Assembly (NCBI GenBank): GCA_030695905.1
Contig: JAUYOL010000036.1
Coordinates: 54,814 to 118,813, forward strand
Length of the DNA stretch: 64,000 nucleotides
DNA from: Candidatus Omnitrophota bacterium
Lineage (GTDB): Bacteria > Omnitrophota > Gorgyraeia > 2-01-FULL-45-10
Reading direction: 5' to 3'
The notes under the pieces were generated by a model. That model was not told the DNA's origin. It did not search any database and saw only the letters and a program-made list of their open reading frames with translations. Every line of letters starts with the position of its first letter. Within the stretch, counting starts at the first letter, position 1. Of the stretch, positions 3,846-56,054 are shown piece by piece. The position numbers and the translations under genes were made by a program.

Positions 3846-3855
3846 CTCTAATACC

Positions 3856-6974: not shown

Positions 6975-6975
6975 T

Positions 6976-41295: not shown

Positions 41296-41538
41296 TTAAG
41301 CTTTATCGACGTCTTCATGAACCCATCTGCGCGCTTTATTGTAGGCTTTTCCGACCTTATCTTCCAGTTTGGGCGAGACTAAACGCAAGATCTCTTTACC
41401 AAGTATGCGGTACTGCTTGCCCACTTTAGCAGTCTTAATAATACCTTTTTTGATCAGACGCATCGTGGTGCTCGGACTTATCTTTAAAAGCTGTTGCACT
41501 TCTTCTGTTGTGTATATTTCGTTATCCTTTATCTCCAT
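41296..41538 (-). CDS. Small helix-turn-helix DNA-binding protein (MerR/excisionase-type HTH)
   Basis: 80 aa; YTTEEVQQLLKISPSTTMRLIKKGIIKTAKVGKQYRI is a canonical HTH_17-type motif. Only non-enzymatic gene in the window. Confidence 0.6.
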   Translation of the reverse strand: MEIKDNEIYTTEEVQQLLKISPSTTMRLIKKGIIKTAKVGKQYRILGKEILRLVSPKLEDKVGKAYNKARRWVHEDVDKA

Positions 41539-41657: not shown

Positions 41658-42389
41658 TCAGCTGTATTTGCGAGATAAGGCGGTTAGCTTTATTATCAGT
41701 ATGCTTATGAAGGATTTTATTGCATCCTTTACTGGCTTTACTTTAGACTCGCTCTTGTGGATCCATCTAACGGGTACCTCTTTTATCTTAAGGCCGTATT
41801 TATTTAACAAAAACAGCAGCTCAACATCAAAGCTCCAGTCATTCATTTTTTGTAACTCGAATATACGGTAGGTGGTTCTTGTGTTATAAACCTTAAATCC
41901 GCAATTAAAATCGCTTAAGTTTAATCCAAGTATGAGCCGCGCCAGAAAAATATAAAATTGGCCCATCTTTGCCCTAAAAAAAGGCTGCGGCTCTTCCACA
42001 TTGGAAGTTTTAAGCCTTCTCGATGCTATGACGGCATCATATCCCTCTTTAAGATAAGGCAGGAATTTGTCAAATTCATAAATAGATGTAGAATTGTCGG
42101 CATCCATGAATAGCGCGTACTCTCCTTTAGCGAAAAGAATCCCCCTCTTTACTGAATACCCCTTACCTTTATTGGCGTCGTTCTTAAGGACTTTGAAATC
42201 GCTGAAAAGATTCGAGCAAGTTTGAGTATTTTCAAAAGTCTTGTCCTTGGATCCGTCGTCTATGACAATTATTTCATATGAAAATTTTTTTTTATTTAAA
42301 TAACCCGATATCTCTTCAAGCGTCGTCCGGATATTTTTCTCTTCATTGTATGCAGGTATGACGACTGTTAAAAGAATGTCCTGGTTCAC
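41658..42389 (-). CDS. GT2 polyprenyl-phosphate glycosyltransferase (DPM1/ArnC/CsbB-like)
   Basis: ILLTVVIPAYNEEKNI...IIVIDDGSKDKT...DADNS. Start set to GTG preceded by AAAGGAGG (6-nt spacer); the longer ATG ORF would overlap the upstream gene by 134 nt, while this start still overlaps by about 47 nt. Confidence 0.75.
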   Translation of the reverse strand: MNQDILLTVVIPAYNEEKNIRTTLEEISGYLNKKKFSYEIIVIDDGSKDKTFENTQTCSNLFSDFKVLKNDANKGKGYSVKRGILFAKGEYALFMDADNSTSIYEFDKFLPYLKEGYDAVIASRRLKTSNVEEPQPFFRAKMGQFYIFLARLILGLNLSDFNCGFKVYNTRTTYRIFELQKMNDWSFDVELLFLLNKYGLKIKEVPVRWIHKSESKVKPVKDAIKSFISILIIKLTALSRKYS

Positions 42390-44064
42390 TTTGCGCCTCC
42401 TTTTTTGTAAAATCATAGATAAATATGGAATGACCGGCTGTTGCGGTCGGTTTATGTTCCTTCGCCCACTTAGCATGCTCTAAATATTGGGCGCTTATCG
42501 CATATATATTATTTCCCGGTACCTCAAATTCGTCGGGCGTAAACTTTCGATAATGAACGCCATAAACAGCCGGGTCTGCCTGGCCGAAATATTCTAACAC
42601 TACCTCTTTTACACTATTTTTTTCCATATACCGTGATAGCGACGGCAGGTCCTGTCCCCAATCAACATTTGAATCTCTAATATATTTATATCCGTTTGCC
42701 GGGCCTCCAACAGCTTCATTAAAGTAGCCCAGATAATGCGGCCATGCCGTGAAGGCCGAAAAGGCGTACCAGACAATCAATAGCGCCATGGCAATAACCG
42801 CGGCTTTATTCTTCAGGAACTCCACGCTTCTGCCCGCTATCATAAAACAGAAAGGATATACCGGCAATATGTGCCGCAACCCCAGCTTCAATCCGCTTAG
42901 AGACGATACTGCCAGGAATATGACAGTAAAGATAAGGATAAACCTTTCGCCCATGCCGAGCCTGCGCCTTAATAATGCCATAAGGCCGGCCAATAATAGT
43001 ATTATTGCCGCGATGGGCGTCTTTATCAGGAACGCCGTGACAAAATATAGCGGGCTTCCGTGGGCCGACCATCTTCCCAGGAAAAAAGTATTGTGGCCCT
43101 CCTGGCCGTGGCGCAGGACCCCTATTATACCGAGCATGTGTGACGGCAATGGCACCGGAACTTTCAGTAAAATATCGTCCAGTCTGCGAATGGCCTCGGG
43201 TCCCGCGGCCGGGAATATCTTCTTGGCGATACTGTGCGCGATCTGGAGCTTTTCGTCTACTCGCATCGCATCCTTCAATAATGGCTGAAACTCAAAGCCG
43301 TACCCGGCCCAAATAACTATTAAAGACAATAGAACTATAATAAAGAAGTTTAAAAGAGCGAGATTGCTTCGTCGTTTCGCTCCTCGCAATGACAGTTTTT
43401 CAGCAATCCCGAATAATTCAAGAAGTGGAATTAATAGAAATACCGGATAGAGCAGGATGGCCGTATACTTGGACAATTGCGCCAGGCCAAGGGCAAGGCC
43501 CGCCAATACAGCGTTCTTCATGGAGGGCTCTTTCAAAAATAGCCAGAATGTATAACACGATAGCAGGATAAAGAAAGCGGCTATCATATCCGTAGTGGCA
43601 AGACCGGAATGCGCCAGCATCTCAGGAGATGAGGAGTAGAGGAACAGGCTCAATAAAGCCGCCTTCTCACCCCAAAGCGCCTTTGCCCACACGAACAATA
43701 ATAGGCCGCATAATACACCCACAAGCACCACTGGCAGCCTGGCGGCCCATACGATCGCGACCTGTCCTGCATTGTACTTATAGAAAAAATCCCTGCCGAA
43801 AACAGAACGATCCGCCGCTCGCCATACAGCCTTGTCGTCAGGCATGTCTATATTCATGAATAACTTCAGGGGCAATGCCACTATGTATCGCGGCAGCGGC
43901 GGCTGCGATGTATCCATCTTGAAATCGGCCTTTGTCAATAAAACATACCCCACGGGTATATGATGGGCGATCTCATCGCATGTTGCGGAATTCTGCCGCA
44001 TACTTGATATAGTTAAAACAGCAAATACCAAAAGTAGAATTATTACAGGTATTTTTGTCTTCAT
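42343..44064 (-). CDS. GT-C membrane glycosyltransferase (ArnT/PMT_2, GT83/GT39-like)
   Basis: 573 aa, N-terminal TM bundle with CDEIAHH periplasmic-loop acidic motif (DE of GT-C), more than 10 TM helices, C-terminal soluble domain. Confidence 0.6.
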   Translation of the reverse strand: MKTKIPVIILLLVFAVLTISSMRQNSATCDEIAHHIPVGYVLLTKADFKMDTSQPPLPRYIVALPLKLFMNIDMPDDKAVWRAADRSVFGRDFFYKYNAGQVAIVWAARLPVVLVGVLCGLLLFVWAKALWGEKAALLSLFLYSSSPEMLAHSGLATTDMIAAFFILLSCYTFWLFLKEPSMKNAVLAGLALGLAQLSKYTAILLYPVFLLIPLLELFGIAEKLSLRGAKRRSNLALLNFFIIVLLSLIVIWAGYGFEFQPLLKDAMRVDEKLQIAHSIAKKIFPAAGPEAIRRLDDILLKVPVPLPSHMLGIIGVLRHGQEGHNTFFLGRWSAHGSPLYFVTAFLIKTPIAAIILLLAGLMALLRRRLGMGERFILIFTVIFLAVSSLSGLKLGLRHILPVYPFCFMIAGRSVEFLKNKAAVIAMALLIVWYAFSAFTAWPHYLGYFNEAVGGPANGYKYIRDSNVDWGQDLPSLSRYMEKNSVKEVVLEYFGQADPAVYGVHYRKFTPDEFEVPGNNIYAISAQYLEHAKWAKEHKPTATAGHSIFIYDFTKKEAQSEPGHSFNSRHTCIQ

Positions 44065-46244
44065 CTTTTAAATAAAGAAAATTGTGGTTTGTACACAAAA
44101 ATAACTTTATGATGCCCCTTGCCTACAGCAACGGCCTGCAGGATATCCTTAACTCTTACCATATCCTTCTCTATACCGTCGACAAATGCGTGCCATCCGG
44201 GATAGTAATTTTCAGAAAATACAACAAACCCATCGTCATATGCCGTGACCTCAGCTTCGATATATCCGTTTTTGTATGTTAATATTTTAACGGCCGCTAA
44301 AGGCGACTGTCTTACGTCTGAGACTATGCTTGCGGTAAAGAACAGCCGCGGGAAAAAATCCCTCATCCTGTAAAGAAATACGCCGTTATCCGTATAAACT
44401 TTTTCCAGCCCCCGGTCCTCCAGTTCTTTTTGCGCTATTATGTATTTAACGTTAAGCAGCCGCAACGTGTCCGCACCGGTCTTTATCGCGTCGTCTGCGG
44501 CATCCGCATAACCGAGAGAATCATCTATAGCCCCCAGAGCGAGAAACTTATCCCTATACACCTTGGTCACGAGCGGGGTGTAGCACGCAACGCTGTCTAT
44601 GCCATATGCGATATTCGCGTTGGCTATAGACCAGTTAGGTAATTTCCCTGGCCTAGAATCAAATGGAAGGATCCTGTAAATATCGCGATCCTTCTTAAGG
44701 TATTCCAGAAGGCCGTTATTATCCGGTGCCAGGCTCAAAAACGGCTTTATGTTCTGGCTGAAGCCTTTTCCGTAAAAACTGAATATAAATATATCGACAA
44801 ATATCAAAGCAACAGCTATATATTTCGACCTTTTACGTAAAGGCATCAGGCAGAACAATAATGCCGCTATAAGGATCGCCCATGACAAAATAACAAAAAT
44901 GCTTGAGAAAGAAAAACCGCCCAAAACCGCGTCATATGAAATCTTAAACTTATCTATATAGTATTCCAGGCCGTAACGGTGATGCGGCTTATTGTAGATA
45001 AAATTGCGCACAAAATAATCCCCGAAACTAATAATGTTGGTCTTGAACAGGGCCAATAAAAATTTTACTGCAAAAAATGCGCATCCCGCCGCGGATAACA
45101 CCAGTAAAAATACAAAATTGGTTTTTCGCCTGGCTGCGGTGTCATCATCGTTAAAGTACCGGGTCAGCCCTATCCCGGCCAGGACCGCCAAGGAAAAAGA
45201 CCCGAAGAACAAGAATTTGGACGGGTTCCTGAAGATGTATAACTTCGTGATCTTGATCAATGCAAAATATACAGGATTATATCTCCCGAGAGCCAGGAAC
45301 ACTGATAATATCAGGAGCAATACAAGCGGCCTTGCTGACCTGTCTTTTTTCAACGAATAAAGACAGGATACGACAAATAGAAGGCTCAATATCCCCACAT
45401 AAAGATCGCCTTTAAAGGCGAAGGAATAAGGAAATACGGTCCCCAGCAGCCCCGAAGGAAAGACCGAGCCCCATAGCGCAAAGGCCGCCGTTGCGCCCTC
45501 TCTATTGGATAATCCGGCCAATTGGTAAGTAAGTACAAGCTGAGGCAACGCTATCAAAATAGCTGTAGCAAAAAATCCGGCTAAAGAGGCTGTGATCCTT
45601 ACCGCACCTTTTTTCTCTATCATCGCCTTATAAATAAAATACGCCAGATAGAAAAAAGCGCTGTATGCGGCCATCTGCACGAATCCCGCGAGAAACTGCA
45701 GCCCCAGTATTACGCCGCCTAAAAATAAATATTTCAGTTCTTTTTTATCAAAATGGTTCTCTATGAACAGCAGAACCAGCGGAAACCACGCCAGGGTCCG
45801 TAGCGTGACTATATTGTAGAAACACCCGGTATAAGCGCTCCCAAAACAGAAAAGTAAGGCTGCGAGGCTGCCTCCGGATTGATCCGTGCCCAATTTGCGG
45901 CTGTATAGATAGGTAAAAATACCTCCCATTATGAAGTGTAGGATTACCGAATAATTATATGCGATCTTGAACGGCAGGGCAAAAAATAGCACTATATTGA
46001 GCGGATAAAAACCGCCCACCTGCCCTTCGGCCATAAGAGGAAATCCGCTGCCCATTGCCTTTATCCAATAAGGGAACGAAAAGGATTTTATTGATTCCGC
46101 ATAGCACTTCGACCAGGGGTAGAATTGAACAAATGAATCTCCCCATATAAATCCTCCCCGCATGGTTATTAGAGGATACAAAAATACCGCTATCGTGAAA
46201 GAAAAAAACGCGATAAATCCTAAGTGGTTTTTAAGTATTCTCAT
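44061..46244 (-). CDS. YfhO-family polytopic membrane glycosyltransferase (GT-C-like)
   Basis: Large (about 727 aa from Met at 46244) protein, N-terminal 12+ TM helices then C-terminal extracytoplasmic domain. N-terminal ...GDSFVQFYPW...GFPLMAEGQVGGFYPLNIV... resembles YfhO. Start chosen at the Met abutting the upstream stop; the longer Arg-rich ORF to 46319 is an alternative. Confidence 0.5.
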   Translation of the reverse strand: MRILKNHLGFIAFFSFTIAVFLYPLITMRGGFIWGDSFVQFYPWSKCYAESIKSFSFPYWIKAMGSGFPLMAEGQVGGFYPLNIVLFFALPFKIAYNYSVILHFIMGGIFTYLYSRKLGTDQSGGSLAALLFCFGSAYTGCFYNIVTLRTLAWFPLVLLFIENHFDKKELKYLFLGGVILGLQFLAGFVQMAAYSAFFYLAYFIYKAMIEKKGAVRITASLAGFFATAILIALPQLVLTYQLAGLSNREGATAAFALWGSVFPSGLLGTVFPYSFAFKGDLYVGILSLLFVVSCLYSLKKDRSARPLVLLLILSVFLALGRYNPVYFALIKITKLYIFRNPSKFLFFGSFSLAVLAGIGLTRYFNDDDTAARRKTNFVFLLVLSAAGCAFFAVKFLLALFKTNIISFGDYFVRNFIYNKPHHRYGLEYYIDKFKISYDAVLGGFSFSSIFVILSWAILIAALLFCLMPLRKRSKYIAVALIFVDIFIFSFYGKGFSQNIKPFLSLAPDNNGLLEYLKKDRDIYRILPFDSRPGKLPNWSIANANIAYGIDSVACYTPLVTKVYRDKFLALGAIDDSLGYADAADDAIKTGADTLRLLNVKYIIAQKELEDRGLEKVYTDNGVFLYRMRDFFPRLFFTASIVSDVRQSPLAAVKILTYKNGYIEAEVTAYDDGFVVFSENYYPGWHAFVDGIEKDMVRVKDILQAVAVGKGHHKVIFVYKPQFSLFKR

Positions 46245-47926
46245 CTTGCACTGTATATTACCAGATATGGCCCTGCGGCGCGCCTTGAGAAAAGCTCTCT
46301 TGTGCCCGCGGGCACGCATGTCAACTCTGTCGTATCATATGGAAGCCTGAATTTATCATCTTTATAAGGACTGAATACGGCAACCACCTTTAATATGCCG
46401 TCTGCTTCATCATGCAGCCCCTTTATCGCTTCGGATGGATCCATATTATTGAACACTATATAACCGATGTCGTTTTTCTTTATATCGTCCATCGAATTCT
46501 CTACCATCGGCCATAAATTCAAGAATTGGCCTGGCGCCTCGTTATCGCCCCTTAAATAATATACCCGATATGTCTTGGGGGCTTTACGGCCCTTTATAAG
46601 AAGCTCCAGTTTTCTGCGCTTCAATTCCTTCAGCTCGGGCTGTCCGGAAACTATGCCCTCTTTTTCTATCAGCTGCTCCGTTATCTGTTGCAGCGGAGGG
46701 CTGAAGAAGGTGTGGGCAAGGGCTATGCGCGTACCCGCTTCTATATTCTTTTCTATCCATTCCTTTGCCTCTATGCGCGTATCCTTACTTGTAAAAAGCA
46801 GGTCTGCCTTGATAGACTTGGCCGTTGTCGGTATTATCAGCGCCAATGAGGCCGCGACGATGGCGGCCTTTAATGCCTTCGTTCTTATCTTTTCGTATGA
46901 TCCGAATAGTAAAAAAGATAGGCCTATTGCCAGAAAAGGAATTATCGGCAAGGCGTACCTCGGAAAAGGCTGGCTCTTGAAAACAAGATGTATGTAGAAA
47001 AACGCCGGAAAGGAAAGAAGAAAAACCGCTTTTTTAAAATCTTTCTTCAAAAACCACACTAACCCAGCAACCCCTAAAATAGTAGGAATCACGCCCAGTC
47101 CTTCGAATAATGAATATGTAAGATGGTAACTAAGGCCCCTGTACCCGCCCCTGATCCTGTGTGTCAAGGACTCCAGAAAGAACCTGCTATCCAGGACAGA
47201 GTACGGGTTGCATATGATAAAAGTTGCTATTGCCGCGGCGGCGAATAAAGCAAGGTCGGGGACAGCGGAACTTGCGCGTTCCGGCGCGCGCCGTCTTATA
47301 AAATGAGCGGCCAAAAAAGGCGCCCCAAGCAATACGGCATTATATTTAGTGGCCGTTGCTATCCCTATAAGCACCCCGGCGATAATATAATTCATCCTAC
47401 GCGGATCGCTTATAAGCCTCTCCAACTGAAGATACGCGGCCAATATAAAGAGTGCCAAAAGATTATCGGTATAGGCGTAATGAGCGTTGACGACGTTCAG
47501 GAACGCCAGGGCCATTACGAACGCCGCGTAAATAGCTACTCTGTTTGAAAATAATCTCGCGGCCAGCCTGTAAGTAAGATATATACACAAGATACCTGGT
47601 AATGTCCCCAGGACCACCCTTCCTATGATATAAAATATCGTCGGGTCGTTGAAAAAACTGAGGGCAAAACTTTCCGCTCCTTTGAATATACCGCAGGCGC
47701 TGCCCGCTAAAAAATAAATTATATAACAGCCGAACAAAATATAGGAGGCAATCGGAGGGATTATAAAAAAATGCGGGTTCAGGTCACCGGTACCATAGGC
47801 AAGCGCATGATTAACTATTATCGGCTCGTCCTGGTGGAATTGATACGGAAGGCCAAAATTTAATCCCCAAAGACGGAGAATAGTGCCTATGCCTATGATA
47901 ATCAATAACGGAAAATATTTTTTCAT
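46241..47926 (-). CDS. GT-C membrane glycosyltransferase (ArnT/PMT_2-like, GT83)
   Basis: RLWGLNFGLPYQFHQDEPIIV (DE motif in first periplasmic loop), 11-13 TM helices, C-terminal soluble domain. 561 aa. Confidence 0.65.
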   Translation of the reverse strand: MKKYFPLLIIIGIGTILRLWGLNFGLPYQFHQDEPIIVNHALAYGTGDLNPHFFIIPPIASYILFGCYIIYFLAGSACGIFKGAESFALSFFNDPTIFYIIGRVVLGTLPGILCIYLTYRLAARLFSNRVAIYAAFVMALAFLNVVNAHYAYTDNLLALFILAAYLQLERLISDPRRMNYIIAGVLIGIATATKYNAVLLGAPFLAAHFIRRRAPERASSAVPDLALFAAAAIATFIICNPYSVLDSRFFLESLTHRIRGGYRGLSYHLTYSLFEGLGVIPTILGVAGLVWFLKKDFKKAVFLLSFPAFFYIHLVFKSQPFPRYALPIIPFLAIGLSFLLFGSYEKIRTKALKAAIVAASLALIIPTTAKSIKADLLFTSKDTRIEAKEWIEKNIEAGTRIALAHTFFSPPLQQITEQLIEKEGIVSGQPELKELKRRKLELLIKGRKAPKTYRVYYLRGDNEAPGQFLNLWPMVENSMDDIKKNDIGYIVFNNMDPSEAIKGLHDEADGILKVVAVFSPYKDDKFRLPYDTTELTCVPAGTRELFSRRAAGPYLVIYSAR

Positions 47927-48636
47927 CCGTTCCGTCTCTTAATCTTAAAAAGATCGATAAACATCGCAAGAGAACTATTAATAACCCGTACCTTGCTTTG
48001 TGGCGAGTTCTCCCAGATAATTCCAGTTTCCGCTATACGATAGCCTTTTTTCCCGGCAAGATAAAGCATCTCAACATCGAAACAAAAACCGTTTACTGTA
48101 AGCTCTTTCCCCAGCTCTCTTGCTACATTACCCTTAAAAAGCTTAAAACCACACTGAGTGTCATTGAACCCCTTTATCAACAACATATTGACCAGGAAAT
48201 TAAATATTCTGCCCATCCACTCCCTATAAAAAGGCTGATGAACTTTTACGTCGGCTCCGGCTATGCTGCGCGAACCGATCACTATGTCACACCCCTTTTT
48301 GATATAGCTAAAAAGCTTATCGGCCTCTTCGATTGGCGTGGATAGATCGGCGTCGCTGAAAAGTATATATTCTCCGGAACTGTTCAGAATACCGTTCTTT
48401 ACGGAAAACCCCTTACCTTTATTTGTGCCGTTATTGATTATCTTTAATTTGGCGATCTTGGCGAGTTCGCTATCCTGCGCCCGAATAACGGTATTATCGC
48501 TGCTTCCATCATCTACAAGGATAACTTCCCAGTCGTAATCTTTTGTTCTCAAAAATTCATAGACCTTAGAAAGAGTCGGCCCTATCCTGCCCTCTTCGTT
48601 ATAAGCCGGTATTATTACCGATAAATAAACAGACAT
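47923..48636 (-). CDS. GT2 polyprenyl-phosphate glycosyltransferase (DPM1/ArnC-like)
   Basis: LSVIIPAYNEEGRIGPTL...VILVDDGSSDNT...DADLSTP (DxD). 237 aa. Confidence 0.8.
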   Translation of the reverse strand: MSVYLSVIIPAYNEEGRIGPTLSKVYEFLRTKDYDWEVILVDDGSSDNTVIRAQDSELAKIAKLKIINNGTNKGKGFSVKNGILNSSGEYILFSDADLSTPIEEADKLFSYIKKGCDIVIGSRSIAGADVKVHQPFYREWMGRIFNFLVNMLLIKGFNDTQCGFKLFKGNVARELGKELTVNGFCFDVEMLYLAGKKGYRIAETGIIWENSPQSKVRVINSSLAMFIDLFKIKRRNG

Positions 48637-48638
48637 TC

Positions 48639-50012
48639 TTATTTCCTGTCCTTAAATGTTATTTTGTAAAACAATGTTCTTTCTGACTCATAAATAGGCT
48701 CGTAATCGAAATTATATTCTTCTTTTTTCTCCTTAAATATGTCCGGCAGTATTATACAATAAATCTCCTTTTTGCCCTGTGATATAAGAGACTGATATAC
48801 GCTTTTGTCCAACTCCCTGGTGAAGTCATAATAAAATATTTCAGAATCGTTTCCGCTGATCATATATATATCATTCCCGGCTTTATGCAGCTCCATGCCC
48901 AGCGCTGAAACTTTTTTTATATCAGGAGTATATTCCAGCTTAAATGCCCACGATAGCGGGATCTGGGCCAACATCCCTGCAAGGATGACAATAAGCGCTA
49001 CATATAGCAGCTTCTTTGTTAAAAATCTCTTCAGTAAAAAAGCGGACAGTAACGCAAGGGCCGGATATATAGGCATTATATACCATTGCAACTTAGTCCT
49101 TACCGCGCTGTACAGAAATAACGTAACAAGCACCCAGCTTAATAAAAATACCAGCCTTTTGTCCCTGTCTTTAAAACATCCATAAGCCGCGTAAAAAACA
49201 GACGCAAATATCATTATCGACCACGGCATGTTTTTCTTAAAGATTACCCTTATATAGTAATCAAGCCCTCCTTTGTGGCCTTCGAGCACGGAAGTCGCCC
49301 TCTGAAATATATGAAAACCAAAATATCCCTTTAGGGCAGCGGGCCCTGTCAGTAGAAATTGCGCCAGGTGCCATATAAAAATAACTGAAAAAGCGACCGC
49401 TGTGCCAAGCAGGAACTGCCGCCTGAGTACCAGGCGAATATCTTTAGACAATACGGCATAAACAATAATCACCAATAAAGGTAAAAATGCCGCGAAGCCT
49501 TTCAGCAAATACGAAACACAGAGTATCGCCCCGGAATAAAACAGATACTTTTCCTTCTGGGCTCCCAGCCAAAAAAGATAAAGTGTCAGCAGGGTAAAGA
49601 AAGCCACCGGCACATCCATCATCCCCATCTTGGAAAAATGGATATAATGAGGGAATGCCAGAAGTATAAGGGCCGATAAAAGCCCCGTCATTTTATCCGC
49701 GAGCTTCTTCCCGAAAAGATACAGTAGTAAAACAGATGCTACGCCCAAAATGCCGGAGGTCAACCTCGTGGAAAATTCACTCACTCCGAATATCTTATAA
49801 AAAACAGCCGTGCACCACATGTATAGAGGCGGCTTGTCAAACCACAGCTTTTCACCCTGGCGCATTACCAGCCAATCGCCTGTCTTGACGATATTCCTCG
49901 ATATGTTGGCATAAATCGCTTCATCAAATGTTGAAAGGCTCCCCGTGCCTATGTTGCCCAGAATATAAACAGAGGCAAATATAAGAAGCAGCCAGAATAT
50001 ATTGTCTTTCAT
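48639..50012 (-). CDS. GT-C membrane glycosyltransferase (ArnT/PMT_2-like, GT83)
   Basis: SLSTFDEAIYANISRN...WFDKPPLYMW N-terminal motifs shared with ArnT-type 4-amino-arabinose/mannose transferases. 457 aa. Confidence 0.65.
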   Translation of the reverse strand: MKDNIFWLLLIFASVYILGNIGTGSLSTFDEAIYANISRNIVKTGDWLVMRQGEKLWFDKPPLYMWCTAVFYKIFGVSEFSTRLTSGILGVASVLLLYLFGKKLADKMTGLLSALILLAFPHYIHFSKMGMMDVPVAFFTLLTLYLFWLGAQKEKYLFYSGAILCVSYLLKGFAAFLPLLVIIVYAVLSKDIRLVLRRQFLLGTAVAFSVIFIWHLAQFLLTGPAALKGYFGFHIFQRATSVLEGHKGGLDYYIRVIFKKNMPWSIMIFASVFYAAYGCFKDRDKRLVFLLSWVLVTLFLYSAVRTKLQWYIMPIYPALALLSAFLLKRFLTKKLLYVALIVILAGMLAQIPLSWAFKLEYTPDIKKVSALGMELHKAGNDIYMISGNDSEIFYYDFTRELDKSVYQSLISQGKKEIYCIILPDIFKEKKEEYNFDYEPIYESERTLFYKITFKDRK

Positions 50013-50019
50013 AATAGTC

Positions 50020-51423
50020 TCACGTATTTTTATACCCGGTCTCCTTTGCCGTATTTTTGCAGCGCAGGAGTATGAAAGAATATACGATCAGCATCGGCAC
50101 GGCCAACACACACATGCGTTTCCAAAAGGTCATTATCAGAAAATAGGACAGAAGAAAAACGAGCTGAAATTTTAAGCGTATATTGCTTAAGAAAATAAAG
50201 GGAATAACCCATAGCAGATACCATGCCTGAAATGGCGTAGAATTAGTGAAGAGGAGCGCAAGCAATATCAATGCGGCTGCTGTAAATAATGAACCCCTGT
50301 TCTTTTGGGCATTCCTTACGAGGTAGCCCAGTATGCAAAAGTATGCTATGGCAAACAGGGTAAGGAAAACATTCGCGAGTAGATTTTTCGAAATTGCAAT
50401 ACCCGCCTTGTCCGAAATAAAATATATCGCGGATGGAATGGAATCGACCCAGAAATTTTTGCTTAATTCGGTATAGTAATAAATAATCGCCTTAACGCTC
50501 TCCCGGCCGAAAGGAAGCCATGCAACTACCGTGGTAAATATAAATATCGCGCCCCCTATTATAACGCCATAAACCCTTTCCCTGACGCTATGCGTCTTTT
50601 TGGCATATAGGATAAATACGGGAATGAACAATACGTAAACAAATTTAACGGCTATGGCAAGCGCAAGAAACGCGTATGAAAGCACATGTTTCGATTTTAG
50701 CAGAAAATAAAAAGCGCAAAGTATAAAGAAAACCATGACAATCTCATTATGGCCGTCTATCAGCGTCATTACTATGACCAAGGGATTTAACAATAAAGCT
50801 AAAGTTGTAGCTCCTGCATCCTCGGGAATATTATCTTTACACAATTTGTAAAAAACAGATGGGGTCATGCCTAAAAAAGCCAGGAGCACCAGCTTGTGCA
50901 TGAATGAGGTCAGAGCTACATTGTTTTTAAAAAATAACGTATGAACTGCCCCTATCGCCACCCATAGCGGCCCATAACACTCTGGTGTGCTTTTCCAGAA
51001 TATCAGAGGAAAGAAGATATCATTCTTTATCTCCATTGGCACATGAAGATATGGATTTAACTTATAGATACTGAGCATGCGCCCTCTTACGGAATATTCG
51101 AACAAGTCGTGAGACAAGAGGGCCGAAGAATTGCAGAGTATCAAAAATATAATTATCGTGCTTGCCCAGAAATATAAAGACAGATTACCGGATTTAAAAA
51201 CCGATATCCCGGATTTTTTATAAAAATAAATGCATAGATAATACGCAAGAAAGGTTATTGAGAATACCCCTATGATATAAAACCGCAAGAATCTATCCAT
51301 GGGAGGAAGGAATTTTTCATGGATTAGGGGATATATGCGCGGGATATGATATATTACGATCAGCGATAAAAGAAATATGAGGTGTGAAAGTATAAAATTT
51401 ATTTTATCGCGTTCTGGACGCAT
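50020..51423 (-). CDS. Polytopic membrane protein, putative GT-C-type glycosyltransferase or glycan polymerase (DUF2029/GT87-like)
   Basis: 467 aa, about 12 TM helices, ...LLNPLVIVMTLIDGHNEIVMVFF... loop. Family assignment uncertain. Confidence 0.35.
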   Translation of the reverse strand: MRPERDKINFILSHLIFLLSLIVIYHIPRIYPLIHEKFLPPMDRFLRFYIIGVFSITFLAYYLCIYFYKKSGISVFKSGNLSLYFWASTIIIFLILCNSSALLSHDLFEYSVRGRMLSIYKLNPYLHVPMEIKNDIFFPLIFWKSTPECYGPLWVAIGAVHTLFFKNNVALTSFMHKLVLLAFLGMTPSVFYKLCKDNIPEDAGATTLALLLNPLVIVMTLIDGHNEIVMVFFILCAFYFLLKSKHVLSYAFLALAIAVKFVYVLFIPVFILYAKKTHSVRERVYGVIIGGAIFIFTTVVAWLPFGRESVKAIIYYYTELSKNFWVDSIPSAIYFISDKAGIAISKNLLANVFLTLFAIAYFCILGYLVRNAQKNRGSLFTAAALILLALLFTNSTPFQAWYLLWVIPFIFLSNIRLKFQLVFLLSYFLIMTFWKRMCVLAVPMLIVYSFILLRCKNTAKETGYKNT

Positions 51424-52534
51424 GTCTCCTCTGTATCTTTCTTATTGCCTCGCAGATAAATAAAATATTCTTATCTTTGAGCGCAAGCCCGGTAGGAAGA
51501 TAAAGGCCGTGGTCTGAAATATAGTCGGAAACGGGGTATCTCTTCTTTTTATCTACGAGCCCCAGCTTTTGTATTACCGGCTGCCTGTGCATGGGAATGA
51601 AAAAAGAACGTGTTTCGATCCCCTCTTTTAGAAGTTCGGTCCTGAACCTGTCCCTCGTCAGGCCAAAATCCTCTTCGACCAAAACTGAATACATCCAGTA
51701 CACGCTTTTTGCCCATTTCTCTTCTAACGGCAATCTCAAGCCTTCGACATCTTTAAGGTTTTCATAATATAATCCGGCTATGCGCCTTTTCCTGGCTATA
51801 AGACTATTCGCATTTTCTATCTGGGCAAGGCCTATTGCCGCCTGCATGTTTGTCATCCTGTAGTTATACGCCAACTCCGTATGCAGGAAACGCTGACCCG
51901 GAGAATGGGAAAGGTCTTTAAGCAGGCGCGCTCGTTCTGCCAGTTTTCTATTATTAGTAACGACCATCCCGCCCTCGCCCGTTGTGATAATCTTATTCGC
52001 GTAGAATGAAAAAGAATTGATATCTCCCATGGAGCCACATAGCTTATTCTTATATCTTGCGCCGTGCGCCTCGGCGGCATCCTCAACTATAAAAATGCCG
52101 TATTTTTTTGAAAGCTTGATAATAGGATCCATATTAACGGGGTGCCCGTATATATGTACAGGCAGCAATACCCTGGTTTTTGAGTTCACCGCTTCCTCGA
52201 TATCGGAGACATCCATATTCCATGTCCTGTCTTCACTATCAATAAATACAGGCTTTGCCCCCAGATACAGGACAGCGTAAGCGGTCGCGATCATAGTAAA
52301 GGTCGGCATAATGACTTCGTCGCCCTTCTTAATGCCCAGGCAGGCAAGGGCAAGATGAAGCGCCGCTGTCCCGTTTGTCGTAGAAATACCGTATCGGACA
52401 CCGCAAAATTTGGCAAACTCCTCTTCAAAACTTTTTATATACTTACCTTTTGAGGATATCCAACCGGACTTCACGCAATCAGTTATATATTGAAGCTCTT
52501 TCTTACCCATTAAAGGCTCGTTTACGGGGATCAT
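51404..52534 (-). CDS. PLP-dependent sugar aminotransferase, DegT/ArnB/Per family
   Basis: SFSFYANKIITTGEGG (PLP-Lys present); LRDLSHSPG hmm-like RxHG region; N-terminal ...GWISSKGKYIKSFEEEFA... typical DegT. 376 aa. Confidence 0.8.
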   Translation of the reverse strand: MIPVNEPLMGKKELQYITDCVKSGWISSKGKYIKSFEEEFAKFCGVRYGISTTNGTAALHLALACLGIKKGDEVIMPTFTMIATAYAVLYLGAKPVFIDSEDRTWNMDVSDIEEAVNSKTRVLLPVHIYGHPVNMDPIIKLSKKYGIFIVEDAAEAHGARYKNKLCGSMGDINSFSFYANKIITTGEGGMVVTNNRKLAERARLLKDLSHSPGQRFLHTELAYNYRMTNMQAAIGLAQIENANSLIARKRRIAGLYYENLKDVEGLRLPLEEKWAKSVYWMYSVLVEEDFGLTRDRFRTELLKEGIETRSFFIPMHRQPVIQKLGLVDKKKRYPVSDYISDHGLYLPTGLALKDKNILFICEAIRKIQRRHASRTR

Positions 52535-52947: not shown

Positions 52948-52965
52948 GATTAGGATCTCCTTGAA

Positions 52966-53664: not shown

Positions 53665-53667
53665 GCC

Positions 53668-56044: not shown

Positions 56045-56054
56045 GCGATATTCC

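What the first reader, a model, noticed from the sequence alone, without database searches (positions are those of the whole stretch)
41658..51423. Iterated GT2 + GT-C modules: three polyprenyl-phosphate sugar synthases and five large GT-C membrane transferases in 10 kb
Sequence: GT2 genes at 41658–42389 and 47923–48636 (another at 52966–53664 and one at 12180–13124) show the DPM1/ArnC/CsbB pattern (VIPAYNEE…DDGSxDxT…DADxS). They alternate with polytopic GT-C proteins at 42343–44064, 44061–46244 (YfhO-like), 46241–47926, 48639–50012 and 50020–51423 (plus 3856–5418 and 56055–57818), several carrying the first-loop DE/ HPP motifs of ArnT/PMT enzymes.

Established knowledge: GT2 enzymes make Und-P-sugar on the cytoplasmic face; GT-C enzymes (ArnT, PMT, YfhO) transfer it on the outer face to lipid A, proteins or teichoic acids.

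Inference: at least three or four independent periplasmic/extracytoplasmic decoration systems, each possibly with a different sugar (Ara4N-like, heptose/colitose-derived, HexNAc). This is reminiscent of S-layer/protein O-glycosylation or cell-wall polymer decoration islands.
Basis: partly seen in the sequence, partly recalled or inferred. Interest (0 to 1): 0.6.

Follow-up and report, generated by a model that had tools for sequence, protein, structure and literature searches.

The report
Omnitrophota periplasmic sugar-transfer gene block
A tightly packed operon in an uncultured Omnitrophota bacterium encodes three small enzymes predicted to load sugars onto a lipid carrier and six large membrane enzymes predicted to pass them to a cell-surface target. 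The core of this set recurs in every related Omnitrophota locus examined, so it looks like a standard envelope-building kit of the group rather than a curiosity.

Summary
On the minus strand, 41658-57818 holds three short GT2 genes of the DPM1/GtrB/ArnC type. It also holds six polytopic GT-C genes: four PMT_2, one YfhO and one GT87/MptA_B-like. All score above Pfam cut-offs and carry acidic first-loop motifs. Two AlphaFold models match solved GT-C enzymes.

The source is a Candidatus Omnitrophota MAG, where GenBank names these genes only generically.

This is not a set of 1:1 modules or a variable decoration island.
- Six related loci keep the two PMT_2 types, YfhO and short GT2s, five of them as a PMT_2-YfhO-PMT_2 triad. 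An 80-aa HTH gene and a nonulosonic-acid cluster follow in four of them.
- A Gmd / GT2 / WbuC-cupin / aminotransferase / GT87 sub-block is conserved in four loci.
- The ArnT-like GT-C and a second PMT_2 paralogue are accessory.

The array sits inside a surface-glycan locus of about 85 kb on one strand, with Wzx, two phosphoglycosyl transferases and two Wzy_C proteins.

The most likely reading is that a few polyprenyl-phosphate sugars feed several periplasmic GT-Cs, which extend or decorate the glycan made by this locus. The sugars, the acceptor and the flippase are unresolved. I rate it a new variant of a known kind, of moderate interest.

The parts
41658..42389 (-). GT2a: short (243 aa) TM-less GT2 of the DPM1/GtrB/PgfS type, predicted polyprenyl-phosphate glycosyltransferase. 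It has a GTG start with an AAAGGAGG Shine-Dalgarno-like sequence.
   Evidence: - Pfam Glycos_transf_2, E 1e-27.
- Best PDB hits are DPMS 5mlz (E 5.7e-19) and GtrB 5ekp (5.5e-17).
- Best NCBIfam hit is PgfS, 80 bits, far below its cut-off.
- No TM segment.
- Orthologues at 50-66% identity in L002, L007 and L009, but at a different position in the block in L007 and L009.
- Start context.
42343..44064 (-). PMT2-B: 573-aa GT-C of the PMT_2 family. It carries a first-loop C-D-E-IAHH motif, SQPPL, and a conserved C-terminal DSNVDWGQD motif.
   Evidence: - Pfam PMT_2 56.5 bits, PMT 45.1 bits, and a local Glyco_transf_22 match of 26.6 bits.
- 8 or more TM segments.
- Orthologues at 51-70% identity in L002, L007 and L009, with the motifs conserved also in L012 and L014.
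44061..46244 (-). YfhO-like GT-C, 727 aa: 12 or more TM segments plus a C-terminal beta-rich periplasmic domain. It is the central gene of the conserved triad.
   Evidence: - Pfam YfhO 59.9 vs 28.5.
- 326 homologues at E <= 1e-5. The top 120 are 42-100% identical, 657-746 aa long, and cover at least 90% of the query. Every one of them that carries an organism name is Omnitrophota.
- 63 invariant columns in a 46-sequence alignment, including D36 in the first loop.
- AlphaFold model pLDDT 87.8. Top PDB matches are ArnT, AftD, STT3/PglB, EmbC and AftA.
46241..47926 (-). PMT2-A: 561-aa GT-C of the PMT_2 family. It carries a first-loop HQDEP motif, NPHFFIIPP, and a soluble C-terminal domain of about 190 aa.
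   Evidence: - Pfam PMT_2 50.3 bits, PMT 33.9 bits.
- Orthologues at 45-70% identity in L002, L007 and L009.
- In the alignment the HQDEP/NPHFFIIPP block is conserved in L007, L009, L012 and L014. L013 carries an HDDEP variant in its gene at 5134-6846.
47923..48636 (-). GT2b: short (237 aa) TM-less GT2, 40% identical to GT2a, predicted polyprenyl-phosphate glycosyltransferase. It is translationally coupled to the downstream triad by 4-nt overlaps.
   Evidence: - Pfam E 1.1e-27.
- PDB hits: DPMS 1.6e-20, GtrB 5.4e-13, ArnC 8.2e-13.
- Paralogy to GT2a.
- Gene overlaps.
- Orthologues at 56-78% identity in L002, L007 and L009.
48639..50012 (-). ArnT-like GT-C, 457 aa, PMT_2 family. It is an accessory member found only in the window and its closest relative, L002.
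   Evidence: - Pfam PMT_2 83.6 bits.
- phmmer vs ArnT 5ezm gives E 7.2e-27 over residues 20-350. FDEAIYANISR aligns to PDEGRYAEISRE, and FDKPP aligns to FEKPP.
- NCBIfam ArnT equivalog 106 bits vs cut-off 567.
- Its slot holds a GDSL-like gene in L007 and nothing in L009.
- Its nearest relatives in the genome-collection scan outside L002 are CPR bacteria at 33-36% identity.
50020..51423 (-). GT87/MptA_B-like GT-C, 467 aa, with about 12 TM segments.
   Evidence: - Pfam GT87 32.6 vs 25. A precomputed PF26314 MptA_B_family hit is also on record.
- 44-sequence alignment with invariant D106, Y110, Y150, G151, P214, H225, N226, K260, W401 and W405.
- Model pLDDT 91.4, pTM 0.92.
- Top PDB matches are GPI mannosyltransferase I 9wno, PimE 9dm7 and ALG6 6snh.
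- Orthologues at 46-78% identity in L002, L007 and L009.
51404..52534 (-). DegT-family sugar aminotransferase (LegC/PseC/perosamine-synthase-like), part of the conserved GT2c sub-block.
   Evidence: - Pfam DegT_DnrJ_EryC1, E 6.6e-119.
- NCBIfam LegC family 359.7 bits vs cut-off 420.
- 69-82% identical orthologues in the same position in L002, L007 and L009.
52531..52947 (-). 138-aa soluble WbuC-like cupin, conserved between GT2c and the aminotransferase.
   Evidence: - NCBIfam cupin_WbuC 40.5 bits vs cut-off 42.
- No PDB sequence hit.
- 61-86% identical orthologues in L002, L007 and L009.
52966..53664 (-). GT2c: short (232 aa) TM-less GT2 of the DPM1/Ppm1 type, predicted polyprenyl-phosphate (GDP-sugar dependent) glycosyltransferase.
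   Evidence: - Pfam E 1.3e-32.
- PDB DPMS 5mlz, E 1e-35 over residues 2-206.
- 2701 homologues. Named ones are called polyprenol monophosphomannose synthase or dolichol-phosphate mannosyltransferase. Identity is 55-57% even in Desulfobacterota.
53668..54663 (-). GDP-mannose 4,6-dehydratase-like enzyme.
   Evidence: - NCBIfam gmd 398.3 bits vs cut-off 415.
- Pfam GDP_Man_Dehyd, E 1.3e-120.
- Orthologues at 63-91% identity in L002, L007 and L009.
54710..56044 (-). B12-binding radical SAM enzyme. Its role is unknown. A sugar C-methyltransferase is the likeliest guess.
   Evidence: - Pfam B12-binding plus Radical_SAM.
- NCBIfam hits only far below cut-offs.
- 88% identical orthologue in L002.
56055..57818 (-). 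Second PMT2-B-type GT-C, 587 aa, a paralogue of 42343-44064 at about 33% identity. Accessory member.
   Evidence: - Pfam PMT_2 43.6 bits.
- Paralogy.
- SDE, HPP and DSNIAWGQD motifs.
- An orthologue is found only in L002. L007 and L009 give only paralogue-level hits of about 28% identity on their PMT2-B genes.
41296..41538 (-). 80-aa HTH_17 (excisionase-type) DNA-binding protein between the GT-C array and the nonulosonic-acid genes. It is a candidate regulator.
   Evidence: - Logan gene call with PF12728.
- NCBIfam excise domain 34.3 bits vs 28.8, and a weak MamR hit.
- A gene of the same family and size sits at the same junction in L009/L010, L012, L013 and L014.
- Promoter-like site matching 11 of 12 positions at 41593-41566.

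Best explanation
The block is the extracytoplasmic arm of a very large surface-glycan locus in an Omnitrophota bacterium.

Proposed mechanism:
1. Three small, TM-less GT2 enzymes of the DPM1/ALG5/GtrB kind sit at the cytoplasmic face. Each transfers one sugar from a nucleotide sugar to polyprenyl (undecaprenyl) phosphate. GT2c most probably uses GDP-mannose or a GDP-6-deoxy/amino sugar made by the adjacent Gmd, cupin and aminotransferase.
2. The lipid-linked monosaccharides are flipped to the periplasmic face. No dedicated flippase gene is present. The candidates are the Wzx-type protein at 28510-29991 and the flippase-like LPG_synthase_TM protein at 5411-6352.
3. Six GT-C enzymes in the run use these few donors to add single sugars in the periplasm. 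The core four are PMT2-A, YfhO, PMT2-B and GT87-like. The accessory two are the ArnT-like GT-C and a second PMT2-B.
4. Because there are more GT-Cs than donor synthases, several GT-Cs must share a donor and differ in acceptor or linkage. Mycobacterial lipomannan/arabinan synthesis and the ER-lumen ALG steps work this way.
5. The most likely acceptor is the nonulosonic-acid-containing oligosaccharide built on Und-PP by the same locus, either before or after a Wzy_C-family ligase/oligosaccharyltransferase hands it to its final carrier.

Shown: family membership, fold, motifs, operon structure and conservation in six related Omnitrophota loci. Inferred: the donors, the flipping step, the shared-donor logic and the acceptor.
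For: Components:
- GT2 family and closest solved relatives are the polyprenyl-phosphate transferases DPMS, GtrB and ArnC. Annotated homologues of GT2c carry polyprenol-P-mannose synthase names.
- GT-C family assignments are above Pfam cut-offs. The ArnT alignment shows conserved DE and (E/D)KPP motifs.
- The loop-1 Asp is invariant in the GT87-like protein (D106) and the YfhO-like protein (D36). DE motifs are conserved in both PMT_2 orthologue families.
- High-confidence models match only GT-C enzymes. Many of these were solved with Dol-P/Und-P ligands.

Operon: 4-nt start/stop overlaps run from GT2b through PMT2-A, YfhO and PMT2-B, with a 47-nt overlap into GT2a. The window is 99% coding on one strand.

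Conservation:
- The whole order is kept at about 70-90% amino-acid identity in L002.
- The core is kept at 39-69% identity in L007 and L009.
- The triad plus short GT2s, followed by the HTH gene and nonulosonic-acid genes, is kept in L012 and L014. L013 has the same families in a different order.
- The YfhO-like protein has more than 300 homologues. All named ones among the 120 listed are Omnitrophota.

Context:
- GDP-sugar genes next to GT2c: Gmd, WbuC-cupin, aminotransferase, HddA/HddC-like, ColD/RfbH-like and Fcl-like.
- Pse/Leg-type genes, a WbuX amidotransferase and Wzx inside the window.
- PglC-like and WbaP-like phosphoglycosyl transferases, two Wzy_C proteins and a GT9 just outside the window on the same contig.
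- A 32%-identical GT87 homologue sits directly after a Wzx gene and orthologues of window genes 28510-32979 in L011.

Precedent: TM-less GT-A enzymes, Wzx-type flippases and one GT-A serving two GT-Cs are all described in PMC8035078.
Against: - No biochemical data exist for any member.
- None of the GT2s or GT-Cs reaches an NCBIfam equivalog cut-off, so no substrate can be transferred by homology.
- The three GT2s lack the C-terminal TM helices of GtrB, ArnC and CsbB. No membrane partner was identified.
- No GtrA/ArnEF-type flippase gene exists in the window.
- GT2c is 55-57% identical to homologues in other phyla. That argues for an ordinary donor (GDP-mannose) rather than the amino sugar suggested by its neighbours.
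- L013 shows a more pairwise PMT_2/GT2 layout. This leaves room for separate donor-transferase pairs.
- The YfhO-like model resembles oligosaccharyltransferases (STT3, PglB) about as well as ArnT. An en-bloc transfer role is therefore not excluded.
- Linkage to the nonulosonic-acid and Wzx genes is by adjacency only.
Confidence: 0.6

Rival explanations
1. There are several independent three-component decoration systems. Each GT2 makes a different Und-P-sugar for its own GT-C, and each pair decorates a different envelope molecule (lipid A, O-antigen, protein, peptidoglycan-linked polymer).
For: - The three GT2s are divergent: a/b 40% identical, c 27%.
- The GT-Cs belong to four different sequence families and are barely alignable with each other.
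- L013 has an alternating layout: PMT_2, GT2, sugar-modifying enzyme, PMT_2, GT2, acetyltransferase, PMT_2, YfhO, GT2.
- The ArnT-like gene is an add-on next to GT2b, and ArnT is a lipid A decorator.
- A separate GT2 / PMT_2 / flippase-like / formyltransferase-deacetylase block exists at 239-6352.
Against: - There are six GT-Cs for three GT2s in the run.
- GT2b through PMT2-A, YfhO and PMT2-B are translationally coupled. They are inherited together in five of the six related loci.
- GT2a changes position relative to the GT-Cs between genomes.
- No separate flippases are present.
- The whole run is one strand without terminators above chance.
Confidence: 0.25
2. Protein O-glycosylation machinery. 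The PMT_2 and YfhO enzymes transfer sugars from polyprenyl phosphate directly to Ser/Thr of secreted or surface proteins (pili, S-layer or the giant surface proteins typical of Omnitrophota). Actinobacterial Pmt/Ppm1 and streptococcal PgfS/PgfM work this way.
For: - PMT and PMT_2 Pfam hits on four of the GT-Cs.
- The best NCBIfam hit of GT2a is streptococcal PgfS.
- Wzy_C proteins, the family that includes O-oligosaccharyltransferases, flank the island.
- Nonulosonic-acid clusters are frequent in protein glycosylation loci (my own knowledge).
- Omnitrophota encode many very long surface-directed proteins (10.64898/2026.06.07.730766).
Against: - No MIR or other protein-recognition domain was detected in the PMT_2 proteins.
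- No candidate acceptor protein gene lies in or beside the block in any of the loci read.
- A GT9 heptosyltransferase and HddA/HddC-like genes point at least as much to LPS-type glycans.
- The PgfS score is far below its cut-off (80 vs 500 bits).
Confidence: 0.2
3. Some of the GT-C paralogues are not monosaccharide transferases. They could transfer or polymerise Und-PP-linked oligosaccharides, acting as ligase, oligosaccharyltransferase or polymerase. Alternatively they could be non-catalytic scaffolds or carrier-recycling/flipping helpers.
For: - The YfhO-like model matches STT3/PglB/AglB and Emb/Aft polymerising enzymes as well as ArnT.
- The GT87-like model also matches the non-catalytic GT-C-like subunit PIG-U of GPI transamidase.
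- PMT_2 proteins hit NCBIfam TIGR03663, 'flippase activity-associated protein Agl23', weakly.
- There are more GT-Cs than donor synthases.
Against: - First-loop acidic residues are invariant or conserved in every family examined. That argues for catalysis.
- Dedicated Wzy_C proteins already exist for ligation or polymerisation.
- The PMT_2, YfhO and GT87 family members characterised so far use polyprenyl-monophosphate sugars (PMC8035078, and my own knowledge).
Confidence: 0.12

Closest known systems
Multi-component (three-component) transmembrane glycosylation systems: GtrB/CsbB/GacI-type GT-A, GtrA- or Wzx-type flippase, and a PMT_2/YfhO-type GT-C (reviewed in PMC8035078)
   Same: - The same two enzyme families are side by side.
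- The GT2s are closest to GtrB, ArnC and DPMS.
- PMT_2- and YfhO-family GT-Cs have first-loop acidic motifs.
- TM-less GT-A (GacI) and Wzx-type flippase (GacK) variants are known.
- One GT-A can serve two GT-Cs (GttA).
   Different: - There are six GT-Cs and three GT2s in one operon instead of one pair.
- All three GT2s lack TM anchors.
- No GtrA gene is present.
- The host is a diderm PVC-group bacterium rather than a Firmicute or enterobacterial phage.
- The core is conserved in the related loci examined rather than serotype-specific.
Mycobacterial/corynebacterial cell-envelope glycan assembly: Ppm1 polyprenol-P-mannose synthase with PimE, MptA, MptB, Emb and Aft GT-Cs
   Same: - A short soluble Ppm1-like GT2 supplies many different GT-Cs.
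- A GT87/MptA_B-like member is present, and its model matches PimE.
- Several GT-Cs act in series on one polymer in the periplasm.
   Different: - The NCBIfam MptA equivalog scores only 49 bits vs its 439-bit cut-off.
- No PIM, arabinan or DPA genes are present.
- In actinobacteria the genes are scattered rather than in one operon.
- The phylum and envelope are different.
ER-lumen steps of eukaryotic N-glycan and GPI assembly: DPM1/ALG5 with ALG3/9/12/6/8/10 and PIG-M
   Same: - Two kinds of Dol-P-sugar synthase feed a larger number of GT-C transferases that extend one lipid-linked glycan after flipping.
- The GT87-like model's best matches are GPI mannosyltransferase I and ALG6. It also matches ALG9 and ALG12 more weakly, and PMT2-B 42343-44064 has a local Alg9-like (Glyco_transf_22) Pfam match.
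   Different: - Only fold-level similarity was found (12-18% identity, TM-score 0.3-0.5).
- No evidence of orthology.
- The acceptor is unknown.
Arn pathway (ArnB/ArnA/ArnC/ArnD/ArnT): lipid A modification with L-Ara4N
   Same: - 48639-50012 aligns to ArnT (E 7e-27) with the DE and KPP motifs.
- GT2b hits ArnC.
- A formyltransferase-deacetylase fusion plus GT2 plus PMT_2 block exists at 1207-5445.
   Different: - The ArnT and ArnC equivalog models are far below cut-off (106 vs 567 bits, and 58 vs 529 bits).
- The protein is 457 aa, shorter than the 578-residue solved ArnT chain 5ezm, and the alignment covers only the membrane part.
- No ArnE/F is present.
- The gene is accessory in this lineage.
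Haloferax volcanii AglD / AglR / AglS: final mannose of the S-layer N-glycan added outside the cell from its own Dol-P carrier
   Same: A Wzx-like flippase, a DPM1-like GT2 and a GT-C add a sugar to a glycan assembled on a separate carrier by the same locus. The best NCBIfam hits of GT2c are archaeal: AglJ and the dolichyl-phosphate hexose transferase.
   Different: - The system is archaeal and N-linked.
- It has a single GT-C.
- Scores here are far below cut-offs (72 vs 325 bits, and 68 vs 375 bits).
- The comparison rests partly on my own knowledge of the Agl pathway.

Membership tests
Polyprenyl-phosphate glycosyltransferases of GT2 (DPM1/Ppm1, ALG5, GtrB, ArnC, CsbB) | GT-A catalytic domain with the N-terminal nucleotide-binding motif and a DxD motif, closest in sequence to characterised members rather than to processive synthases | tested here: met
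   - Pfam PF00535, E 1e-27 to 1e-32.
- The top PDB hit for all three is DPMS 5mlz (E 6e-19, 2e-20, 1e-35), and GtrB and ArnC are also matched.
- Chondroitin and heparosan synthases match only about the first 100 residues and more weakly.
- The motifs are seen in the translations.
Polyprenyl-phosphate glycosyltransferases of GT2 (DPM1/Ppm1, ALG5, GtrB, ArnC, CsbB) | Membrane anchoring by C-terminal TM helices (GtrB/ArnC/CsbB/archaeal DPMS type) | tested here: not met
   - No hydrophobic segment was found in GT2a, GT2b or GT2c, which are 232-243 aa long.
- They resemble the TM-less subtype (Ppm1 catalytic domain, GacI, human DPM1), which needs a partner or an amphipathic helix.
- GT2 12180-13124 does have a C-terminal TM segment.
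Polyprenyl-phosphate glycosyltransferases of GT2 (DPM1/Ppm1, ALG5, GtrB, ArnC, CsbB) | Formation of a polyprenyl-monophosphate sugar from a nucleotide sugar | not testable with these tools
   This needs an enzyme assay. No NCBIfam equivalog cut-off is reached. The best scores are PgfS 80 vs 500 bits, ArnC 59 vs 529 and AglJ 72 vs 325.
GT-C fold glycosyltransferases (PMT_2/GT39/GT83, YfhO, GT87) | Polytopic membrane protein (8 or more TM segments) scoring above the family's Pfam gathering cut-off | tested here: met
   Searches give the scores (39-84 bits vs 26.1 for PMT_2, 59.9 vs 28.5 for YfhO, 32.6 vs 25 for GT87). One search gives 7-12 hydrophobic segments, and the simple scan undercounts.
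GT-C fold glycosyltransferases (PMT_2/GT39/GT83, YfhO, GT87) | Conserved acidic residue(s) in the first extracytoplasmic loop | tested here: met
   - DE is aligned to the ArnT DE.
- D106 is invariant in 44 GT87-like sequences.
- D36 is invariant in 46 YfhO-like sequences.
- HQDEP and DE[IL]AHH are conserved across loci.
- Loop topology is inferred from position after TM1 and was not tested separately.
GT-C fold glycosyltransferases (PMT_2/GT39/GT83, YfhO, GT87) | GT-C three-dimensional fold | tested here: met
   - Tested for two of the seven GT-Cs.
- The GT87-like model (pLDDT 91.4) matches GPI-MT-I, PimE, ALG6 and ArnT.
- The YfhO-like model (pLDDT 87.8) matches ArnT, AftD, PglB/STT3, EmbC and AftA.
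- TM-scores are only 0.4-0.6.
- The PMT_2 members were not modelled.
ArnT (lipid A L-Ara4N transferase, GT83) | Orthology to characterised ArnT (NCBIfam equivalog NF009784, cut-off 567 bits) | tested here: not met
   - 48639-50012 scores 106 bits.
- It is related to ArnT (E 7e-27 to 5ezm) but is not an orthologue.
- It is 457 aa, shorter than the 578-residue 5ezm chain, and only its residues 20-350 align.
MptA/MptB/PimE polyprenol-P-mannose-dependent mannosyltransferases (GT87) | Equivalog-level similarity to MptA (TIGR03459, cut-off 439 bits) | tested here: not met
   - The score is 49 bits, and there is no PDB sequence hit.
- Membership holds only at Pfam family level (GT87 32.6 vs 25, plus PF26314) and fold level (PimE, Foldseek E 4.7e-4).
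Three-component Gtr-type system | A GtrA-family (or ArnE/F SMR-type) small flippase encoded with the GT2 and GT-C | tested here: not met
   - All 57 minus-strand ORFs were scanned against Pfam, and none hits GtrA or an SMR family.
- The window is 99% coding. The two internal gaps hold the HTH gene and a carbamoyltransferase remnant.
- None was seen in the related loci.
- The alternatives present are Wzx-type 28510-29991 and flippase-like TIGR00374 5411-6352, at 44.4 vs 43.2 bits.

The most novel reading that the evidence does not exclude
Omnitrophota may possess a phylum-wide, multi-step periplasmic glycan assembly line. In it, DPM1-like and ALG5-like donor synthases would feed at least four dedicated GT-C enzymes acting in series. 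This would be a bacterial counterpart of the ER-lumen/mycobacterial logic. Its product could be a lineage-defining envelope glycoconjugate, possibly the glycan coat of the giant surface proteins or pili these ultra-small, host-dependent bacteria use to attach to prey.
Probability: 0.15. Interest if true: 0.7.

Novelty: new variant of a known kind. Interest (0 to 1): 0.42.

Why it matters
Omnitrophota are widespread, mostly uncultured, ultra-small bacteria thought to live on or prey on other cells, and nothing is known about their surface chemistry.

- A conserved PMT_2-YfhO-PMT_2 triad with its donor synthases gives a concrete, testable handle on an envelope glycan shared by the Omnitrophota loci examined. 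The handle includes defined genes, conserved catalytic residues and candidate GDP-sugar donors.
- It is also a compact natural example of several GT-C enzymes apparently sharing a few lipid-linked donors. That arrangement has so far been studied mainly in mycobacteria and the eukaryotic ER.

If the triad proves ordinary LPS or O-antigen decoration, the value is mainly better annotation of these MAGs.

Tried and rejected
- Anammox/Planctomycetes origin. The closest GTDB locus (L002) is titled 'uncultured Planctomycetia', and I read the Kuenenia S-layer glycan papers. I rejected this after exact protein matches turned out to be GenBank entries of a Candidatus Omnitrophota MAG, and all named homologues were Omnitrophota.
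- The 138-aa protein as an FdtA/QdtA-type ketoisomerase or a GtrA-like flippase. I rejected both. There is no Pfam FdtA or GtrA hit and no TM segment, and the best hit is the WbuC cupin family just under its cut-off.
- Recent tandem duplication as the origin of the 'iterated modules'. I rejected this because only 42343 and 56055 are clear paralogues (about 33% identity). The other GT-Cs share at most short local matches.
- Promoter and terminator scan to define operon limits. The counts are not above shuffled expectation (49 vs 42.8, and 21 vs 20.1). Only the site at 41593-41566 is worth noting.
- PDB sequence search for the GT87-like protein found nothing. Structure prediction and Foldseek were needed.
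- Literature search for any prior description of this locus type in Omnitrophota found none in the held library.
- Look-up of the first window gene (239-1213) failed, probably because the called start differs. The neighbouring gene was used instead.
- CAZy/dbCAN assignment and a dedicated topology predictor were not available.

Full report
**What is in the sequence**

The 64-kb window is about 99% coding on the minus strand, with 57 back-to-back ORFs. Only two internal gaps exceed 46 nt.

Read in the direction of transcription (high to low coordinates), the finding region contains:

| Coordinates | Product |
|---|---|
| 56055-57818 | PMT_2 GT-C |
| 54710-56044 | B12-radical SAM |
| 53668-54663 | GDP-mannose 4,6-dehydratase-like |
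| 52966-53664 | GT2c |
| 52531-52947 | 138-aa WbuC-like cupin |
| 51404-52534 | DegT aminotransferase |
| 50020-51423 | GT87/MptA_B-like GT-C |
| 48639-50012 | ArnT-like PMT_2 GT-C |
| 47923-48636 | GT2b |
| 46241-47926 | PMT_2 GT-C ('PMT2-A') |
| 44061-46244 | YfhO GT-C |
| 42343-44064 | PMT_2 GT-C ('PMT2-B') |
| 41658-42389 | GT2a |

All family hits are above Pfam gathering scores.

From GT2b to PMT2-B, successive genes overlap by 4 nt. PMT2-B overlaps GT2a by 47 nt. GT2a has a GTG start behind an AAAGGAGG sequence.

A hydropathy scan gives 7-12 hydrophobic segments in each GT-C and none in the three short GT2s.

- Only two of the three short GT2s lie inside 41658-51423.
- The genes do not alternate one-to-one.

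**Are the GT2s lipid-carrier charging enzymes?**

- Against all PDB sequences, the best hit of all three is Pyrococcus dolichol-phosphate mannose synthase 5mlz (GT2a 5.7e-19, GT2b 1.6e-20, GT2c 1e-35).
- For GT2a and GT2b the next hits are GtrB (5ekp) and ArnC (9bhc, 8vxh, 9hwj). For GT2c the chondroitin synthase nucleotide-binding region (about the first 100 residues) comes second, ahead of ArnC and GtrB. Heparosan synthase appears lower still.
- Their NCBIfam hit lists include, among the top hits, PgfS, ArnC, AglJ, PpgS and the haloarchaeal dolichyl-phosphate hexose transferase. All are far below equivalog cut-offs, so no substrate can be inferred.
- GT2c belongs to a very large family of 230-240-aa proteins. 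NCBI names them 'polyprenol monophosphomannose synthase' and JGI 'dolichol-phosphate mannosyltransferase'. GT2c is 55-57% identical even to Desulfobacterota members.
- The three proteins are 232-243 aa and lack the C-terminal TM helices of GtrB, ArnC and CsbB. That places them with the TM-less subtype. The review PMC8035078 describes a cytoplasmic GT-A working with a separate membrane protein (GacI/GacJ).

That test is not met.

**Are the GT-Cs catalytic GT-C enzymes?**

- 48639-50012 aligns with Cupriavidus ArnT 5ezm at E 7.2e-27. The first-loop DE and the (E/D)KPP motifs are aligned. It is nonetheless far from the ArnT equivalog cut-off (106 vs 567 bits) and is only 457 aa.
- The GT87-like protein has no PDB sequence hit. 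A 44-sequence alignment shows invariant D106, Y110, H225, N226 and K260.
- Its AlphaFold model (pLDDT 91.4, pTM 0.92) matches GPI mannosyltransferase I with Dol-P-Man, PimE, ALG6 with Dol-P-Glc, ArnT, ALG12 and ALG9.
- The YfhO-like protein has 63 invariant columns in 46 sequences, including D36.
- Its model (pLDDT 87.8) matches ArnT, AftD, PglB/STT3/AglB, EmbC and AftA.
- The two conserved PMT_2 types keep their own first-loop signatures across loci. PMT2-A has HQDEP...NPHFFIIPP. PMT2-B has DE[IL]AHH...SQPPL plus a C-terminal DSNIDWGQD.
- The GT-Cs are mutually very divergent. Only 42343 and 56055 are clear paralogues (about 33% identity), so the array is not a recent tandem duplication.

**Source and conservation**

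The proteins are exact matches to GenBank entries MDP3791546-57 of a Candidatus Omnitrophota MAG. They carry only generic names there: GT2, GT39, YfhO and GT87 family. The same sequence is on a 171-kb Logan contig.

The nearest species-level relative, L002, is titled 'Planctomycetia' in its record. It keeps the entire order at about 70-90% amino-acid identity, with one extra B12-rSAM gene inserted before GT2a.

More distant Omnitrophota loci compare as follows.
- L007 and L009/L010 (39-69% identity) keep this order: Gmd, (DegT), GT2a-like, GT2c, cupin, DegT, GT87, [variable slot], GT2b, PMT2-A, YfhO, PMT2-B, methyltransferase. In L009/L010 an HTH_17 gene and a PseB-like gene follow.
- The variable slot holds the ArnT-like gene here and in L002. 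It holds a GDSL-like gene in L007 and nothing in L009, which instead has a Wzy_C gene after GT2b.
- L012 and L014 (52% and 47% YfhO identity) keep short GT2s, PMT_2, YfhO and PMT_2. An 80-aa HTH_17 gene and a nonulosonic-acid cluster follow.
- L013 (43% YfhO identity) has four PMT_2, one YfhO and four short GT2s (three ahead of the YfhO gene and one just after it). They lie in a more pairwise order with sugar-modifying genes in between, followed by the same HTH gene and PseB/PseC-like genes.
- The YfhO-like protein has 326 homologues at E <= 1e-5. The 120 listed are 42-100% identical and 657-746 aa long. Every one of them that carries an organism name is Omnitrophota.

From this I conclude:
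- The conserved core is PMT2-A, YfhO and PMT2-B plus short GT2s.
- A Gmd / GT2c / cupin / DegT / GT87 sub-block is conserved in part of the phylum.
- The ArnT-like gene and the second PMT2-B paralogue are accessory.

**Context**

The window also encodes:
- PseB/PseC-like, NeuB, PseH-like and two CMP-transferases.
- A WbuX amidotransferase with HisH/HisF-like partners.
- A Wzx-type flippase and two GT4s.
- A TM-anchored AglJ/ArnC-like GT2.
- HddA/HddC-like, ColD/RfbH-like and Fcl-like GDP-sugar enzymes.
- Four B12-radical SAM enzymes.
- A glycyl-radical enzyme with its activase.
- A block at 239-6352 of dehydratase, formyltransferase-deacetylase fusion, GT2, PMT_2 and a flippase-like LPG_synthase_TM protein.

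On the same contig and the same strand, the flanks add further genes.
- Upstream: a PglC-like phosphoglycosyl transferase, a PglF-like dehydratase, a Wzy_C protein, a papain-like peptidase and a split transketolase.
- Downstream: an acetyltransferase, a NeuC-like epimerase, three GT4s, a GT9, a WbaP-like phosphoglycosyl transferase and another Wzy_C protein.

The GT2/GT-C array is thus embedded in a Wzx/Wzy_C-type surface-glycan mega-locus of at least about 85 kb. In L011, a 32%-identical GT87 homologue directly follows the Wzx gene and orthologues of window genes 28510-32979. This again ties the GT-Cs to the Und-PP-oligosaccharide pathway.

**Mechanism proposed**

Steps marked (shown) rest on tool results. 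Steps marked (inferred) rest on established knowledge of the families.

1. The GT2s are DPM1/GtrB-type enzymes (shown). They make polyprenyl-phosphate monosaccharides on the cytoplasmic face (inferred).
   - GT2c probably uses GDP-mannose, given its high cross-phylum conservation.
   - Alternatively it uses the GDP-4-amino-4,6-dideoxyhexose-type product of its conserved Gmd, cupin and aminotransferase neighbours.
2. The carriers are flipped (inferred). No GtrA/ArnEF gene exists (shown). The Wzx-type and LPG_synthase_TM-type proteins are the only candidates in the window. PMC8035078 gives a precedent for a Wzx-type flippase (GacK).
3. The GT-Cs have conserved catalytic loops and a GT-C fold (shown). 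They transfer the sugars in the periplasm (inferred).
4. Six GT-Cs depend on three synthases, and GT2b, PMT2-A, YfhO and PMT2-B are translationally coupled and co-inherited (shown). Several GT-Cs therefore probably share a donor and act on different positions of one glycan (inferred). One GT-A serving two GT-Cs is documented for Listeria GttA (PMC8035078).
5. The acceptor is most simply the oligosaccharide made by the surrounding locus (inferred from adjacency only).

- The parts list and the general biochemistry are right.
- The idea of three or four independent systems is possible but not favoured. The block is inherited as a unit, has a GT-C excess, and lacks separate flippases.
- L013's layout and the accessory ArnT-like gene show that individual donor/transferase pairs can be added.
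- The proposed sugars are partly echoed by the pathway genes, but no assignment is possible.
- A protein target (PMT-like O-glycosylation) remains a live alternative. So does an en-bloc transfer role for some GT-Cs.

**Novelty**

Every component belongs to a known family, and the genes are already generically annotated in GenBank. The following were not described in the papers I could search:
- the arrangement itself;
- the recurring PMT_2-YfhO-PMT_2 triad with TM-less donor synthases and no GtrA;
- its fixed junction to an HTH gene and a nonulosonic-acid cluster.

I rate it a new variant of a known kind, of moderate interest.

Noticed in passing
window 57805-59399 (-): The NodU-like carbamoyltransferase is broken. 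A 79-aa N-terminal fragment ends in a stop, and the rest continues in another frame from a TTG. Part of the N domain appears to be missing. The orthologue in L007 is an intact 609-aa gene. The Logan gene calls show the same split. This is either a pseudogene or an assembly frameshift.
   Followed up: partly
window 41296-41538 (-), also L009 20058-20318, L012 13949-14191, L013 13047-13286, L014 10423-10662: An 80-aa excisionase-type HTH_17 protein sits at the junction between the GT-C array and the nonulosonic-acid genes in the window and in L009/L010, L012, L013 and L014. It hits the magnetosome protein MamR model weakly (43.6 bits vs cut-off 100). The best promoter-like site of the region (11 of 12 positions) lies just upstream at 41593-41566. 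It may be a locus regulator.
   Followed up: partly
window 22121-27237 (-): A short (670 aa) glycyl-radical enzyme of the dehydratase/lyase group and its activase lie inside the sugar locus. Next to them are an SDR, a CMP-sugar cytidylyltransferase and an HpcH-type aldolase. A glycyl-radical enzyme in a glycan biosynthesis cluster is unusual. It may act on a keto-acid sugar precursor.
   Followed up: no
window 9592-11076, 17032-18561, 20638-22134, 54710-56044, 63198-63920 (-); L015 1-1254: There are four complete B12-binding radical SAM genes plus the C-terminal part of a fifth that runs off the window end (489 aa in the Logan call). At least one more lies upstream, all within one glycan locus. 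None reaches any NCBIfam cut-off. In the related locus L002, an orthologue of 17032-18561 is inserted between PMT2-B and GT2a.
   Followed up: partly
window 6345-8568 (-): An RtcB RNA ligase homologue (E 3.9e-85) and a P-loop, thymidylate-kinase-like protein are embedded between glycosyltransferase genes. They are co-directional and tightly packed. Their function here is unexplained.
   Followed up: no
window 239-6352 (-): A separate Arn-like block is present. It comprises a LegB/RmlB-like dehydratase, a formyltransferase fused to a polysaccharide deacetylase, a GT2 that is not DPM1-like, a PMT_2 GT-C resembling the Leptospira LA_3751 family, and a flippase-like LPG_synthase_TM protein (TIGR00374, just above cut-off).
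   Followed up: partly
L015 1-10004 and L016 11722-21722 (same contig, beyond both window ends): The one-strand glycan locus continues past both ends of the window. Upstream lie a PglC-like and PglF-like pair, Wzy_C, a papain-family peptidase C1 and a split transketolase. Downstream lie a hexapeptide acyltransferase, a GH76-like protein, a NeuC-like epimerase, three GT4s, a GT9 heptosyltransferase-family protein, a WbaP-like transferase and a second Wzy_C. The total is at least about 85 kb.
   Followed up: partly
L002 (CAYSSS010000001.1): The closest GTDB relative is titled 'uncultured Planctomycetia bacterium'. However, it shares about 70-90% amino-acid identity and full synteny with this Omnitrophota locus. 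The record's taxon label is probably wrong or very coarse.
   Followed up: partly
window 48639-50012 (-); L003-L006: Apart from L002, the nearest relatives of the accessory ArnT-like GT-C in the species-representative genome collection are candidate-phyla-radiation bacteria (WWE3, Saccharibacteria) at 33-36% identity. This hints at exchange among ultra-small bacteria.
   Followed up: no
window 31831-34438 (-): A WbuX N-acetyl sugar amidotransferase (318.7 bits vs cut-off 203.2) lies next to HisF-like and HisH-like genes. This is the usual set for making acetamidino sugars. The next gene downstream in the direction of transcription is a 617-aa soluble protein with only a weak LIC12162-family hit.
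   Followed up: no
L009/L010 3490-6780: In one related Omnitrophota locus, two AbiEii toxin genes, an HTH antitoxin-like gene and a DUF6577 gene are inserted between the sugar aminotransferase and the GT2 pair of the conserved block.
   Followed up: no
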